Source of the DNA: Halarcobacter sp.
GTDB taxonomy: Bacteria; Campylobacterota; Campylobacteria; Campylobacterales; Arcobacteraceae
NCBI GenBank assembly: GCA_963676565.1
Contig: OY781089.1
Location: 256,001-320,000 of the forward strand
DNA: 64,000 bases
Reading direction: 5' to 3'
Each line of letters opens with the position of its first letter. The stretch's first letter is position 1. Shown here piece after piece: positions 27,001-42,000 of this stretch. A program made the position numbers.

Positions 27001-30000
27001 AATTATGAAAAATCTATAAAGGAAGTTGTGCAGTTTTTAAAAACAGTTAACTAAAAAAGTTAACTGTTTAGAAATGAATCTTCAACGATTTGAATCTCTT
27101 CTCTTGAGCCAAAATATATTGGTGTAGTTGCATTTATATCTGTAGTTGTCATATCTAAAATACGACCTTTTTTATTAATTGCTCTACCACCTGCTTGCTC
27201 AATTATATAAGCAATAGGGAAGGCTTCAAAGACAGTAAATAGTTTTCCTTCTGGAAAAGATTTAGTTGCAGGAGAAGAGTATAATCCACCTTTTTTAAAT
27301 AAAATTTGGTGAGTATCTAAACATAATGAATCTGAAAATCTTAATCTATAACCTTTGTTAAAAAAACTATCTACTAAAGCTTTGTGTTCAGGTGTCCACT
27401 CAGGAACTAAACCAGCAGTCGAGTTTATTTTCCCAACTTTTTCTAATGTTAAATTATCTTGTTCAATAAACTCCCCATCTTCAAATGAAAAATATTGAAC
27501 TCCATCCATTTTTGAAGCAAATACTAATTGAAAAGTTGGTCCATATGTTACGTAAATTGCTGCTTTTAAATGAAAAGCATCCATTTGTTTTTCATAAATA
27601 CCAAAAATTGAACCCAAAGAAAAGTTTACATCGAGTAAATCAATATTGTCAATTGATACATAACTTACTTTGTATTTTCCTTTTTCATTATTTACTTTTA
27701 AATTTTTGTGTTGTCTTCCAATAAAAGAGTGGATAGATTTTGTTCTTCTAAACTCTCTTTCTATAACGTCTGCACAATAAGATCGAACTTGTTCATTCAT
27801 CTCTTTGTCAGTTAATCCACTTGAAATAAATCTATCACAATCAACAAATACATTTTTTTCTATATCTTCAGCAATATTTGTTATGGCGTTAAAAATAGCT
27901 ATCATTTATTATCCTAAAAACAGTCCCAATTTTGTGGGGACCTTTTATCTTTTTATTAACTTGTTATAAAAGTTCTGAAATTAATAAAATCAAAAATTGA
28001 GTTCTTATACTCTAATTTATCTAATAATTCAAAATCAATATTGTTATTATTTATCATACCAAGTAATTCATTAAAGTTGGATATATGCTCTTTAGTTCTA
28101 TTTTCACTGTACTCAGTAGCTGTAGCAGTTGTCATTAAAAACGCCCAGTCACTACTTTGAGCCAATAATAACTCCCTTAACATTTGAGTTAAAACCCTTG
28201 ATATATTATCATCATCTGTATGGAAATATTCCCGTGCTTTTTCTTCTAAAACATCAGCCATCTCATGAAGATGTCTATATATCCAATCATTTCCTTCATT
28301 AAGCCAAACATCATAATATCCTTTATCTCCCCAAGAGGAAGGATTAGGATTTACAACCTGATTTTTTGGGTACATGTTTAGATATTCTATTGGAGTTACA
28401 GCTTTCATAACTTTGTGTTTATCAATTTCTCTAAACATATTTGCTAAAAACTCTGGACCTTCAAACCACCAATGACCAAAAAGCTCTGCATCATAAGGTG
28501 AAACAACCATTGGCGTTCTATCCATAAGTGACCCTAAATGGTCAAACTGTTTTTCCCTATGCCAGTGAAAATTCTCAGCATGTTGCTTTGTTCTATCTTG
28601 AGCAACCCATGGATTATATGCTTCTTTATAGTCTGTAGTTCCTGTAATCTTATGATATTTAAAACCTGTAAATACTCTAATACCATCTGGATTGATATAA
28701 GGTTTAATATAATCAAAATCAAGGTCATAACCTATATCTCTATAAAAGTCTCTATAATTGAAATCCCCAGGGTATCCCTCTTTTGAACTCCAAACTTGTT
28801 TTGATGATTGTGCATCTCTACCAAATGCTGCACAAGAACTTGGGGTATAAGTTGGAGTATAAACTCCATTTACAGAAGTTGGTCTTCCATATGTTAAGGC
28901 ATGGGAATCAACGATAAAAAACCTTATCCCTTTTTCATTTAGTATTTCATCTAAACCATCATAATAGGCACACTCAGGTAACCAAATACCTTTAGGTTTT
29001 CGTCCAAAATGTTTCTCATGGGATTGAACTGCAATTTCTATTTGTGTTCTAACTGCATGTACATTTACACTTAAAATTGGTAAATATCCATGGGTTGCTC
29101 CACAAGTTATAACTTCTAATGAACCTTTATTATAAAAATATTTATATCCATTTAAAACATTTCCTTCTAAGAAACCTTCAAAAAATTCTTTAGTTTCAAT
29201 AAATAAATCTCTATAAAAATTGGCCAATGGTCCAAAATGACCATCACCCTTTGTTCTTTCAACCTCTTTGTCTCCAAGTTCTATATGTTTATCTAAAAAA
29301 GCTTTATATTTACCCATAAGATGTGAATCCGCTAACATCTCAGCAAGAGGTGGAGTAACAGAAGTAGTAAGTTTAAAATTTACACCATCATCATCTAATT
29401 TTTTTAATCTTTTCAATAAAGGAATATAACACTCGGTGATAGCCTCAAAAAGCCAATGTTCCTCTAAAAAATTCTCATACTGTGGATGCTTTACAAACGG
29501 TAAATGTGAATGTAATACAGGTACCCAATATCCTTTAACCATGTCTTTCCCTTAAATTTTACCCCAATATCTTAGGGCTTAGTTACAAATCTTTTATTTT
29601 ACAATTGATGAAGAGCTGAAATTTTGTTTTTCTTCAATCTCATCTATAAAATGTCTAACTTTTTCCATCTCTTCAACATATTTTGCAGAAGACACTCCCT
29701 CATGTGAATGTTCAATTGTACTTCTAATAACTTCTGTCCATCCCATTTTTTTTCTAATCCAAACCTCATCTTCACTACTTGGCAAATTTATCTGTGAAGA
29801 AAAAGTGTGAATTGTATTTGAAGTAATTAATTCAACAAAATCATCCTCTTTTGTTAAACCAACTTTTACATAAACATTCATATTTTCAAAAGGTCTTTTC
29901 ACATAATATTTACCTAAAGCAAATGAAGACTCAAAACTGTAAAGTTCTTGATTGTTTGAATCATAAACTTTAAAATAAAGTTTATCTTTGCCTAAATCAA

Positions 30001-39000: not shown

Positions 39001-42000
39001 TCAACTACAGTACCAATATCTGTATATGGAACTCTTCTAAAGTTTTCTCTGAAGAATACTCTTTCAATAGATTGAGCCACTTTACTATCAACAGGAAGAC
39101 CTTCACTTGTATAAAAGATTATTTCTGTTTCAGTTGGATCAAAAACAGATTGTCTAAAGTGAACACCTGCCGCCATATCTTCTTTACTACTTAAAGCATG
39201 TCTCATTACATTTGATGGTACATTTCTAGGATCTACAATATTAACTCCCGTTGATAATATACCACCAACAAAAGCTCTTTTTAACATAAATGTTGAAGGA
39301 TGATAATCCCTTGAAATATAAATATTACATCCCTTTGGAAGTATTGAACCAAAGGCTTCAGCTAATTTTGTAGTCATTTGACAAGATAATTCAATGTTTG
39401 TTCTACCAACTACAGAACCCTCTTCAAAAATAGATGATTTGTATTTATTTCCCCAAATGATATTAGAACTAATTACAGAAGAAGCTTCAACTACTTTATC
39501 TGGCCACATAATAATATCTTTTTCAAAAGATACTTTTTTATTAACTAGACACTTTTCAGCCATAATAACACCATGAGATGCTTTTGATTCATCTTTTATA
39601 ACATTATCATTACAAATTACAGAATTATTTAGCTTTACTTTAACTCCAAGTTTTACATCATTCCATAAAACTGTGTCAATAACTTCAGAATGTTTTGAAA
39701 CTTTTGTATTATCTCCAATTACACAATTTTTAAGTGTAACTCCTTCATCAATAGATACATTTTTACCTAAAACTACAGTTCCTTCAACTCTAATTTTTTT
39801 GTTTAATTTAGTTCCCTCTTCACAATAAATAGTTCCTTTATCTAAAGAGCTAGATTCCCCTTTAAATGGAAGTTGAATATCTCCAAGCATAATATCTTTA
39901 TAAACATCTCTATAGCTTTCTGGGTTTCCAACATCTCTCCAATATCCTTTTTGAGGACAACCCCATAAAGGAATATCTTCTTTCATCATCTTTGGAAACA
40001 AATCTTTTGCAAAATCATAATTTTGTTTAAATGGAATCAAATCTAAAACTTGTGGTTCTATTATATAAATACCAGTGTTGATAGTATCACTAAATACTTC
40101 TCCCCAACTTGGTTTCTCTAAGAATTTTTCGATTCTATCCTCTTCATTTGCAATTACAACTCCAAATTGAAGTGGATTTTCAACAGGTGTTAAAGTAATA
40201 GTTAATTGAGACTCTTTTTTCTCATGGAATTTTTTTATCTTTTTAAAATCAAAGTCAGTTACTAAATCTCCACTAACGATAATAAAGGTTTCATCTAAAA
40301 ACTCTCTTGCAAAAGCAACTGCTCCTGCAGTTCCATAATCATCATCAGGTAAAAAATATTGAATATTTACACCTAAATCTTTCCCATCTTTAAAATGTTC
40401 TTTAATAATATCTGGTTTAAAATAAAGTAAAACACCAATCTCTGTAATACCTAATTCATCTCTTAGTTTTATGATGATATGTTCCATCATAGGCCGATTT
40501 AATATCGGAAGCATTGGCTTTGGTACCGAATTTGTCAATGGTTGAATTCTAGTACCAAATCCTCCTGCTAAAACAATTGCTTTCATCCCTATCTCCCCTT
40601 TGTAAATTTTAAACCTAATTAATTAACCAATCTTCTCGCTAAATCTAATAATTCATCTTTTATCTTATACTTTTGCGAATTGACATATTCTATTGATACA
40701 AAATCAAATTGACTTTTATTGTAAACAATTACACTTCCTCCAGTTTGACCTGAAAGCAATCTATCTACTGCAAAGGTTGCAAACTGTGAAGCTAAAAGTC
40801 TATCAAATACAGTTGGATTCCCACCCCTTTGTACATGACCTAGAATTGTTGCTCTTGTTTCAATTCCTATATCATTTTGTAACCAGTCAACTAAGTGTTG
40901 TGTACTTATACATTTGTCATCATGGCAGCCTTCTGCAACTACGCAAACAACATATTTTCTACCGTCTGCAATCTCTTTTTTTAATCTCTTACCAATAATA
41001 TCTAAATCATAATCTAATTCTGGAATTATACAAACCTCAGCACCACAAGTAATTGCAGATACTAATGCCAAATATCCACAATCTCTACCCATAGTTTCAA
41101 TTACACAAGCTCTTTTAAAAGAAGATGAAGTATCCCTTACTGCATCAGTTGCTTGTCTGATTACATTTAAAGCAGTATCAACCCCTAAACAATATTCTGT
41201 TCCGAAAATATCATTATCAATGGTTGCAGGAATCCCTACAAAATTCACCCCAAAATCCTTATGGAATTGGTTTAGTGCTCTAAAGGAACCATCTCCTCCT
41301 AAAATTACTATTTTGTCAATATTATGTTTTTGTAAGTTTTTGTAAGCTTGTTCTCTATATTTATATTCAAAAAATCTTTTTGATCTAGATGACCTAATTT
41401 TAGTACCACCTTCATGCATAATTCCTGCAACATCTTCGTATGTTGCAGGTCTTATATCACCATCAATTAAGCCTTTTAATCCATCATAGATTAAGTAAGG
41501 TTGAACTTTTCTATTAAAACAATAGTCGACAAACTGTTTTATCGCAGGATTCATACCCGCACAGTCTCCCCCTGATGTCATTATTGCTATTGCCATAATT
41601 CACCTTAAGTGTTAAATTTATTTACATGTACTATTAGTATTGACCAACAAAAAGTGTCATATCAACTAATCTACTTGTATATCCCCATTCATTATCATAC
41701 CATGCTAAAACTTTTACAGTTTTACCTTCAATTACAGAAGTCATGTCAGGAACAAATGTTGAAGAGTATGAACTTCCAATAAAGTCACTTGAAACTCTCT
41801 TATCATTATCAATTTCAATTAAACCATCAAATGAAGATTGACTTGCTAGTTCCATTGCTTTATTTACATCTTCTTTAGTAACCTCTTTTTTAAGATTTAC
41901 TGTTAAGTCTACAACTGAAACATCTGCAGTTGGAACTCTCATTGCATAACCATTAAGTTTACCTTTTAAGTTAGGCATTACAAGTGCGATTGCTTTTGCT

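What a model noticed while it worked through the whole genome (the two positions that open the first line are those of the whole stretch)
27956..40586. Glycogen operon without GlgC or GH13 GlgB: a nucleotidyltransferase-phosphoglucomutase fusion and a GalT-like ADP-glucos [...]
The glycogen cluster holds GlgA, phosphorylase, Pgm, a GH57 branching enzyme, a second GH57 and DUF4912, but the genome has no ADP-glucose pyrophosphorylase. g00277 (827 aa, CugP/GMPP-like transferase fused to PGM domains) and g00275 (closest to plant ADP-glucose phosphorylase) are the candidates for supplying the glucosyl donor.
Evidence so far: GlgC model below cut-off here (best 125 of 425 bits, on g00277; control over cut-off in 8 of 14 references) and in 0 of 25 genus genomes; the 830-aa fusion in 14 of 24 relatives, the same count as glycogen synthase in the table; glgA next to the GalT-like gene in at least 260 order genomes; no CBM48 row.
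(Added by a program. Inside this text positions count along the whole contig: contig position 256,001 is position 1 of the stretch shown here. "Call 12" and the like, gene names such as g00115 and contig names such as C1 are that model's own, and its searches are not shown. The text may have been shortened before it was handed on; [...] marks where a part breaks off. The agent that wrote the report below was given it as the finding of a first reader that could run no searches.)

Follow-up and report, generated by a model that had tools for sequence, protein, structure and literature searches.

The report
Glycogen donor enzyme replacing GlgC
This bacterium stores glycogen without the usual glucose-activating enzyme GlgC; a mislabelled two-part protein in the same operon, with a working sugar-activating half and a disabled mutase half, most likely makes the activated glucose instead, in this and several other bacterial lineages.

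Summary
The operon is real: eleven co-oriented genes, gapA to fbp. The complete genome has no GlgC, no CBM48 and no GalK, but it has two GalU and a ManC/ManB pair. In 151 Campylobacterales genomes, GlgA and the 827-aa fusion occur together in 71, neither occurs in 79, and GlgC was found in none. The fusion's nucleotidyltransferase half keeps its catalytic residues. Its phosphoglucomutase half has the full fold but lacks the metal and phosphate loops, so it is a pseudo-mutase, not the annotated ManC/ManB. The protein belongs to one clade that has lost the guanine-reading acid at position 80. In Chlorobia, intact GlgA tracks the fusion, while 6 of 6 fusion-less genomes checked have degenerate GlgA. 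The GalT-like gene resembles plant ADP-glucose phosphorylase and was not found in 15 of 49 GlgC-less fusion genomes, so it probably drains rather than makes the donor. Best reading: the fusion makes the glycogen donor (about 70%), most likely ADP-glucose (about 50%). Against: Geobacterales carry both GlgC and the fusion, and nothing has been assayed. The scan noted the same idea earlier on other DNA.

The parts
41634..42665 (-). gapA, type I glyceraldehyde-3-phosphate dehydrogenase; first gene of the co-oriented run
   Evidence: TIGR01534 409 bits over cut-off 367; 37 bp to pfkA
40619..41596 (-). pfkA, 6-phosphofructokinase
   Evidence: PF00365 341 bits; NF002872 over cut-off
38103..40586 (-). 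827-aa fusion: nucleotidyltransferase (about aa 1-235), left-handed beta-helix (about 236-370), four-domain pseudo-phosphoglucomutase (about 371-827). Proposed glycogen-donor (ADP-glucose) pyrophosphorylase with a non-catalytic sensor module
   Evidence: Pfam; best PDB hit 8x7s 175 bits against E. coli GlgC 51 bits; AlphaFold pLDDT 90.5, PGM fold TM 0.84-0.85 to 9du5; motifs; co-occurrence
36023..38110 (-). GH57 amylopullulanase-like (debranching/hydrolytic) enzyme; overlaps the fusion by 8 bp
   Evidence: 341 bits to a 477-aa GH57 structure series; HMHQP, WPSEGS, DGENAW, IALGSDW match the conserved regions given for Aquifex AaApu in PMC12106739
35016..36035 (-). GalT-like HIT protein, probable ADP-glucose phosphorylase; overlaps glgA by 4 bp
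   Evidence: 176 bits to At5g18200 (1z84) against 69 bits to E. coli GalT; HSHSQ at aa 168; no galactokinase in the genome
33592..35019 (-). GlgA, GT5 glycogen synthase with intact KTGGL, R..QKG and EPCG motifs
   Evidence: TIGR02095 510 bits over cut-off 328; 284 bits to Agrobacterium GS 1rzu; motifs
31935..33575 (-). Short alpha-glucan phosphorylase (GlgP-like, 546 aa)
   Evidence: TIGR02094 467 bits over cut-off 192
30296..31912 (-). Canonical phosphoglucomutase with all four catalytic loops; supplies glucose-1-phosphate
   Evidence: TIGR01132 785.6 over cut-off 778; TPSHNP, DTDFDR, GEESAG, RPSGTE
29594..30241 (-). DUF4912 protein with an FN3/Ig-like beta-sandwich core (about aa 53-150); role unknown
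   Evidence: PF16258; model pLDDT 71.5; best Z 8.5 among many tied FN3 domains, so the fold is generic
27956..29542 (-). GH57 glycogen branching enzyme
   Evidence: PF03065 + PF09210; 544 bits to 2b5d, which I take from recall to be T. maritima AmyC; catalytic motifs GIWLPECAY and PYDAELFGHWW
27060..27905 (-). Class 1 fructose-1,6-bisphosphatase; last co-oriented gene
   Evidence: PF00316 + PF18913; 50 bp after the branching enzyme

Best explanation
A complete glycogen operon in which GlgC is replaced by an unrelated enzyme. Pgm makes glucose-1-phosphate. The N-terminal half of the 827-aa fusion joins it to a nucleoside triphosphate, most likely ATP, giving the donor for GlgA. The GH57 branching enzyme adds branches; GlgP, the GH57 amylopullulanase and a distant MalQ break the polymer down. 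The fusion's C-terminal half keeps the phosphoglucomutase fold but cannot do mutase chemistry; it most likely binds a sugar phosphate or a partner and regulates the active half, standing in for GlgC's allosteric control. The GalT-like protein most likely removes excess ADP-glucose by phosphorolysis to ADP and glucose-1-phosphate. Shown here: gene content, motif states, co-occurrence, clade. Inferred: all activities, the nucleobase, and the regulatory role. Odds: the fusion makes GlgA's donor about 0.7; the whole scheme with ADP-glucose about 0.5.
For: Order sample: GlgA and fusion together in 71, fusion alone 1 (a 150-contig assembly), GlgA alone 0, neither 79 of 151; GlgC 0 of 151. Fusion within 12 kb of glgA in 36 of the 37 genomes where both lie on one contig. 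GalU is in 146 of 151 whether or not glycogen genes are present, so UDP-glucose supply does not explain why the fusion is kept only with GlgA. Own genome also has ManC and ManB. Outside Campylobacterota: GlgA in 47 of 50 fusion genomes, 33 of them without GlgC. Chlorobia: GlgC 0 of 61, fusion 10 of 61; 7 of 7 fusion-bearing genomes checked have a GlgA with intact motifs, 6 of 6 fusion-less ones checked have lost KTGG and R..K. G203 and G183 (single-chromosome records) have an intact GlgA and the fusion but no GlgC, no GalT-like hit and no GalU over cut-off. NTase residues R13, K23, D107, E157, K158, D218 are invariant where covered in 119 homologs. Position 80, whose acid binds guanine N1 in plant VTC1 (PMC9168903; aligned), is never Glu in 69 loci. 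The PGM metal loop reads YPNG[QH]K and the phosphate loop M[VI]PD[QE]; RxSGTE in 0 of 69 loci and 0 of 138 representatives. An ADP-glucose-phosphorylase-like neighbour implies ADP-glucose in the cell.
Against: No activity was measured, and nucleobase choice cannot be read reliably from this family's sequence: close relatives make UDP-glucose (8x7s), GDP-mannose, GDP-glucose or IDP-mannose. The nearest solved relative is a UTP enzyme, not GlgC, and the tree puts GlgC far away (quick tree, long branches). 14 of 50 fusion genomes, 13 of them Geobacter-type, carry GlgC as well, plus one partial, so replacement is not strict. GT5 synthases can take UDP- or GDP-glucose (PMC11046441). G203, G180, G183 and G247 hold a roughly 335-aa nucleotidyltransferase weakly like GalU that could make UDP-glucose. 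Linked genes are lost as a block and kin are not independent, so the 71/79 split overstates the number of events. The GalT-like gene co-occurs almost as well in the order (67 of 71 GlgA genomes). Only 6 of 51 fusion-less Chlorobia were checked for GlgA motifs, and the fusion was detected there by a cross-hit of the GlgC model.
Confidence: 0.55

Rival explanations
1. The fusion makes the glycogen donor, but the donor is UDP-glucose (CugP-like) or GDP-glucose, and this GlgA accepts it.
For: Best structural and sequence match of the active half is 8x7s, entered as a UTP-glucose-1-phosphate uridylyltransferase. GGFGTR is shared with GDP-mannose enzymes. A Streptomyces relative of ManC makes GDP-glucose (PMC5247666). 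Archaeal and chlamydial GT5 synthases take UDP- or GDP-glucose.
Against: GalU is already in 146 of 151 order genomes. The guanine-binding acid at position 80 is absent in 69 of 69 loci. The neighbour resembles an ADP-specific phosphorylase. GlgA is closest to ADP-glucose synthases and keeps the aromatic residue of the GY motif (its role in stacking adenine is recalled).
Confidence: 0.2
2. The GalT-like HIT enzyme makes ADP-glucose through a His-AMP intermediate, and the fusion is accessory.
For: It overlaps glgA by 4 bp and lies within 1 kb of glgA in 40 of 67 genomes. G093 and G105 keep it, without fusion, GlgA or GlgC, inside a glucosylglycerate cluster beside a GgS-like gene; GgS is described as using ADP-glucose (PMC3736172). 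Earlier scan notes report glgA-GalT pairs without GlgC in other phyla (unchecked).
Against: No hit in 15 and only weak hits (60-84 bits) in 8 of 49 GlgC-less fusion genomes, including single-chromosome G203 and G183. It sits beside glgA in Geobacter-type genomes that have GlgC. Run backwards from ADP and coupled to GlgA, the net reaction equals phosphorylase in reverse and cannot drive storage at usual phosphate levels (established thermodynamics); use of ATP as donor is not known to me for At5g18200 (recalled). The link to GgS-like genes was absent in 31 of 31 metagenome loci.
Confidence: 0.12
3. GlgA runs on UDP-glucose from housekeeping GalU; the fusion is a regulator or serves another product and merely travels with the operon.
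For: Two GalU genes in this genome. Geobacter-type genomes keep the fusion although they have GlgC. In Ignavibacteria, Chlorobia and Kapaibacteria loci the fusion has no glycogen gene within 10 kb.
Against: The NTase half is the best conserved part (56% of columns at least 95% invariant). Unlinked fusions still co-occur with intact GlgA. Four such genomes lack GalU over cut-off.
Confidence: 0.09
4. It is what databases call it: a bifunctional mannose-1-phosphate guanylyltransferase/phosphomannomutase for GDP-mannose.
For: JGI and NCBI names; best NCBIfam hit is a mannose-1-phosphate guanylyltransferase model, 219 bits.
Against: That hit is half the cut-off of 440. The mutase loops are lost. 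The genome has ManC and ManB. Distribution follows GlgA. Knock-out of SCO1388, described as a ManC-ManB fusion, was judged to add little to GDP-mannose pyrophosphorylase activity (PMC5982138; I did not align SCO1388).
Confidence: 0.04

Closest known systems
Classical GlgC-GlgA pathway; ADP-glucose pyrophosphorylase GlgC (EC 2.7.7.27, TIGR02091)
   Same: Works like it: NTase plus beta-helix architecture, position beside glgA, glgP, pgm; YWRDVG motif as in the Geobacter-type GlgC sequences read here (YW[RK]DVG).
   Different: 125 of 425 bits; separate branch in the tree; carries a 450-aa pseudo-mutase instead of GlgC's regulatory loops; activity untested.
CugP-type UDP-glucose pyrophosphorylase (PDB 8x7s, tlr0611; the name CugP for this entry is recalled)
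   Same: Closest solved relative of the active half (175 bits; TM 0.72 over the target); shares the G-D motif at 106-107.
   Different: Stand-alone protein; has an inserted loop where the fusion has PDDDYG; no mutase module; not tied to glycogen genes as far as I recall.
GDP-mannose pyrophosphorylases VTC1, GMPPB, Leishmania (7x8j, 7d72, 7whr) and the annotated ManC/ManB fusion (SCO1388, Sll1496; family membership of these two recalled)
   Same: GGFGTR loop, EKP, WxDxG, beta-helix; 149-163 bits.
   Different: EEPLG-type loop with the guanine-binding acid is replaced by PDDDYG; NSD is SGD; the mutase half is degenerate in both subtypes; the F subtype is one clade (33 rows, SH-aLRT 99) among the E-type fusions.
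Arabidopsis At5g18200 ADP-glucose phosphorylase (1z84, 2h39)
   Same: 176 bits; AGASMSHSHSQ identical; GFE motif kept.
   Different: CPFD for CPFC and no second cysteine pair; bacterial, coupled to glgA; activity untested.
Archaeal-type phosphoglucomutase/phosphomannomutase (9du5, 1wqa)
   Same: All four domains, TM 0.83-0.85 over the target.
   Different: SHN reads RQSV, DGDAD reads YPNGH, ASGTEP reads PDQHNE.

Membership tests
GlgC (ADP-glucose pyrophosphorylase family) | TIGR02091 score over 424.9 bits | tested here: not met
   124.9 bits
GlgC (ADP-glucose pyrophosphorylase family) | Groups with GlgC in a tree of the catalytic domain | tested here: not met
   F-type clade lies among E-type fusions; five GlgC rows form a separate long branch (quick tree, placement of long branches unsure)
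GlgC (ADP-glucose pyrophosphorylase family) | Makes ADP-glucose from ATP and glucose-1-phosphate | not testable with these tools
   Needs an assay; supported only by context
NDP-sugar pyrophosphorylase superfamily (PF00483) | GxGxR..K loop, metal aspartates, EK sugar-phosphate motif | tested here: met
   184 bits; R13, K23, D107, E157, K158, D218 invariant where covered
GDP-mannose pyrophosphorylase | Acidic residue at position 80 binding guanine N1 | tested here: not met
   Pro in 119 of 119 near homologs; P 43, A 22, L 2, S 2 in 69 loci; role of the residue from PMC9168903. Invariant D83 might substitute; not tested
Active alpha-D-phosphohexomutase | Four-domain fold | tested here: met
   TM 0.84-0.85 to 9du5
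Active alpha-D-phosphohexomutase | Ser-His-Asn phosphoryl loop, DxDxD metal loop, RxSGTE phosphate loop | tested here: not met
   Ser480 kept but His-Asn, the three aspartates and RxSGTE are lost; pattern anywhere in the PGM half: SHN 2 of 69, DxDxD 2 of 69, RxSGTE 0 of 69; the operon's own Pgm has all
ADP-glucose phosphorylase (At5g18200 type) | HxHxQ motif and closer likeness to At5g18200 than to Leloir GalT | tested here: met
   HSHSQ; 176 against 69 bits; no GalK in the genome
ADP-glucose phosphorylase (At5g18200 type) | ADP-glucose + phosphate to ADP + glucose-1-phosphate | not testable with these tools
   Needs an assay
GT5 glycogen synthase, ADP-glucose type | TIGR02095 over cut-off; KxGG, R..K, EPCG | tested here: met
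   510 of 328 bits; motifs
GT5 glycogen synthase, ADP-glucose type | Donor preference for ADP-glucose | tested here: inconclusive
   GY aromatic kept, but the following Ser of 1rzu is Gly here and varies among relatives
GH57 branching enzyme | GH57 domain, BE_C domain, catalytic Glu and Asp | tested here: met

The most novel reading that the evidence does not exclude
The F-type fusion is a second, independently evolved ADP-glucose pyrophosphorylase, derived from the CugP/GDP-mannose branch and controlled by a fused pseudo-phosphoglucomutase that senses sugar phosphates. It supplies glycogen synthesis in Campylobacterota, Aquificota, Ignavibacteria, some Chlorobia, Elusimicrobiota, Coprothermobacterota and others, with a dedicated ADP-glucose phosphorylase as overflow valve.
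Probability: 0.42. Interest if true: 0.86.

Novelty: new variant of a known kind. Interest (0 to 1): 0.72.

Why it matters
GlgC is treated as the committed step of bacterial glycogen synthesis, and genomes without it are scored as having incomplete pathways. Here GlgC was not found in 151 Campylobacterales, 61 Chlorobia or 12 Aquificota-type genomes, yet many keep an intact synthase together with this protein. If it makes the donor, a widespread family now labelled as a mannose enzyme must be re-annotated, carbon storage in vent, sediment and marine chemolithotrophs gets its missing step, and a dead mutase used as a regulatory module would be a new way to control that step. One purified protein and five nucleotides would test it.

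Tried and rejected
CipG paper (PMC13506006, first of 7 parts): a pentapeptide-repeat protein, unrelated. Idea that GgS plus the GalT-like enzyme generally replaces glucosylglycerate phosphorylase: seen in G093 and G105 only; GalT-like in 0 of 31 metagenome loci with a GgS-like gene, many of them short. Chlorobia as a counter-example (GlgA model in 61 of 61, fusion in 10): weakened, as 6 of 6 fusion-less GlgA checked are degenerate. GT3 synthase as their alternative: 0 of 61. F10 as a specificity marker: it separates F from E fusions but is shared with GDP-mannose enzymes. Stand-alone F-type enzymes: the 120 listed short hits look mostly like partial fusions (many labelled partial); not checked one by one, so nothing concluded. 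Careful tree did not finish; the quick tree is used. Promoter scan: 88 sites against 102 expected, uninformative. RNA runs: small shares, contigs only, expression not shown. Atlas searches returned only DUF4912 and PGM-like clusters. DUF4912 fold is a generic beta-sandwich; no link to a carbohydrate-binding module shown. No complex prediction was run. Dropped before counting: 8 of 58 non-Campylobacterota loci with short contigs; 11 of 80 loci without a full-length fusion ORF; 13 of 150 representatives outside 780-870 aa.
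Full report
Observation. Eleven genes run on the minus strand from 42665 to 27060: gapA, pfkA, the 827-aa fusion, a 695-aa GH57, a GalT-like gene, glgA, glgP, pgm, DUF4912, a GH57 branching enzyme and fbp. 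Gaps are -13 to 54 bp; fusion, GH57, GalT-like and glgA overlap in a chain. The genome is one contig, 99.97% complete. The GlgC model scores at best 124.9 of 424.9 bits, on the fusion. CBM48 and galactokinase were not found. The six PF00483 hits are the fusion and five others that I read from their N-termini and neighbours as two GalU, ManC (beside a ManB-like gene), MurU and GlmU; the two GalU pass the TIGR01099 search. The single GH13 hit lies in a glucosylglycerate-type cluster, and a MalQ lies elsewhere. The closest named relatives of the fusion are from Arcobacteraceae.

Co-occurrence in the order. In one sample of 151 genomes, the fusion was found in 72, GlgA in 71, both in 71 and neither in 79; the one exception is a 150-contig assembly. 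GlgC was found in 0 of 151 and GalU in 146 of 151. The GalT-like gene was in 70: 67 of the 71 GlgA genomes, the exception above, and two complete genomes without GlgA or fusion. Fusion and GalT-like lie within 5 kb in 52 of 68, GalT-like and glgA within 1 kb in 40 of 67, fusion and glgA within 12 kb in 36 of 71, of which only 37 share a contig. Related genomes are not independent and an operon is lost as a block, so these counts show linkage, not function.

Anatomy of the fusion. The model is confident (pLDDT 90.5; pTM 0.59, so domain arrangement is unsure). The N-terminal half matches 8x7s and GDP-mannose pyrophosphorylases, the C-terminal half matches archaeal phosphoglucomutases over all four domains. 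In 119 sequences the catalytic residues of the N-terminal half are invariant where covered. In the mutase half, alignment to 9du5 and 1wqa puts RQSV on ASHN, YPNGH on DGDAD, DSDG on EENG and PDQHNE on ASGTEP. RxSGTE occurs in 0 of 69 loci and 0 of 138 diverse sequences, DxDxD anywhere in that half in 2 of 69 and 7 of 138; the operon's own Pgm has all four motifs. The module is nonetheless kept at full length with its own conserved basic residues (R426 69 of 69, R437 67, R462 68, R518 66, R760 67). That it binds a phosphorylated ligand and regulates the active half is inference; I could not map these residues in three dimensions.

Two subtypes. Of 138 aligned sequences (the query and 137 representatives at 50% identity), 107 have Glu at position 80. 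The window protein belongs to the other subtype: F10 and D83 in 69 of 69 loci, Glu80 in none. These N-terminal domains form one clade (33 rows, SH-aLRT 99) among the Glu80 fusions, far from five GlgC sequences (quick tree). In plant VTC1 the acid at position 80 binds guanine N1 (PMC9168903, passages; the paper writes Asp80, the PDB sequence shows Glu), and it aligns with Pro80 here. This argues against GTP but does not name the base: relatives of this group make UDP-glucose, GDP-glucose or IDP-mannose (PMC5247666, passages).

Other phyla. Among 80 loci from species-representative genomes, the GH57 was within 10 kb of the fusion in 35, GalT-like in 31 and glgA in 27, in Campylobacterota, Aquificota, Desulfurellales, Geobacter-type genomes, WOR-3 and Coprothermobacterota; Ignavibacteria, Chlorobia and Kapaibacteria loci showed none of these. 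For 50 of the 58 non-Campylobacterota loci the genome was searched: GlgA in 47; GlgC at 419 bits or more in 14, plus one partial; GlgA without GlgC in 33 (completeness not reported). Thirteen of the 14 are Geobacter-type by label or sequence. They keep both enzymes, which is the main result against strict replacement. In the class of G160 (Chlorobia), GlgC was found in 0 of 61, the fusion in 10 and the GlgA model in 61. All 7 fusion-bearing genomes checked have a GlgA with KTGG, R..K and EPCG; all 6 fusion-less ones checked, including the best and worst scoring, have lost KTGG and R..K. In the phylum of G157, GlgC was found in 0 of 12 and the fusion in 8 (GlgA not searched there).

The GalT-like protein. 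It scores 176 bits to At5g18200 and 69 to E. coli GalT. At5g18200 is called an ADP-glucose phosphorylase in PMC6329318 and bioRxiv 10.64898/2026.09.13.751320 (passages); the primary paper was not held and its kinetics are recalled. In 49 GlgC-less genomes chosen for having the fusion, it had a strong hit in 26, a weak one in 8 and none in 15, including single-chromosome G203 and G183. Those two also lack GalU over cut-off, though each has a weakly GalU-like enzyme of about 335 aa. This selection cannot show the reverse case; earlier scan notes claim glgA-GalT pairs without GlgC in other phyla, which I did not test. Two order genomes keep the gene in a glucosylglycerate cluster without fusion or GlgC, which fits a role tied to ADP-glucose but leaves the direction open; the link did not recur in 31 metagenome loci. 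Making ADP-glucose from ADP and feeding GlgA sums to phosphorylase in reverse, so it could not drive storage (established thermodynamics).

Rest of the pathway. The 695-aa GH57 matches a 477-aa GH57 structure series at 341 bits, with the conserved regions given for Aquifex amylopullulanase, which cuts alpha-1,4 and alpha-1,6 bonds (PMC12106739, passages). The 528-aa GH57 is a branching enzyme. A GH13 GlgB stands in 6 of the 80 loci, so its absence is particular to this lineage. DUF4912 is a generic beta-sandwich.

Literature. Ten full-text searches of an open-access library returned no paper assigning this fusion to glycogen synthesis; most subscription papers are outside it and no supplements were read. 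The 2024 review PMC11046441 (outline, passages, sections 28, 48, 49, 55, 74) names AGPase and UGPase as the main donor-making enzymes; 'CugP', 'GalT' and 'ADP-glucose phosphorylase' have no occurrence in the held text. PMC5982138 (passages) found that SCO1388, described as a ManC-ManB fusion, adds little to GDP-mannose synthesis. PMC6585502, PMC3514855, PMC3736172 and PMC10395257 were seen as passages only. The scan itself reached a similar reading on other genomes; those notes are not independent support.

Verdict. A real and widespread GlgC-less glycogen operon. It works like GlgC-GlgA, but the candidate enzyme is not a GlgC and not a bifunctional ManC/ManB. The fusion most likely makes the donor (0.7), most likely ADP-glucose (0.5 overall). 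New variant of a known kind; interest 0.72.

Noticed in passing
L202-L205, L214, L215 (G216, G235, G202, G237, G230, G249): These Chlorobia carry a GlgA that passes the TIGR02095 cut-off but has lost KTGG and the R..K pair; no GlgC, fusion or GT3 synthase was found in the class sample apart from the 10 fusion genomes. How they make glycogen, and why the degenerate GlgA is kept, is unexplained.
   Followed up: partly
L123:7542-13305 and L124:5329-12352 (G093, G105): GalT-like gene inside a glucosylglycerate cluster (GpgP-like, glycerate kinase, GpgS, GgS-like, in G105 also OtsA-like), where the window's genome has GalU and a GH13 phosphorylase-like gene.
   Followed up: partly
G000:C1:3149882-3155653 (outside the window): Glucosylglycerate-type cluster with a second GalU and the genome's only GH13 protein, followed by zwf, pgl, edd, eda, pgi-like genes.
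   Followed up: partly
window 21846-27054: Five + strand genes that read like a bidirectional NAD-reducing [NiFe] hydrogenase (HoxEFUYH-like) plus a maturation protease, converging on the glycogen operon. Identified by eye from the translations only.
   Followed up: no
L031:5762-7771, L125:12693-14753, L127:5473-7395: A third GH57 protein (about 640-690 aa, read as 4-alpha-glucanotransferase-like) occurs in 18 of 80 loci; no tblastn hit to it in the window's genome, which has a distant GH77 MalQ instead.
   Followed up: partly
L032, L034, L035, L040, L044, L125: Many order genomes have two glgA copies in the operon, often with a ROK-family kinase between them.
   Followed up: no
L108:10001-12489; G065:C1:957797-960310; G134:C22:9266-11726: A few fusion genes are interrupted between or within domains (split or frameshift); not checked whether real.
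   Followed up: no
P0141-P0269 (E-type representatives): Most 50%-identity representatives of the fusion family keep Glu80 and also have a degenerate mutase half; their genome context and product were not examined.
   Followed up: no
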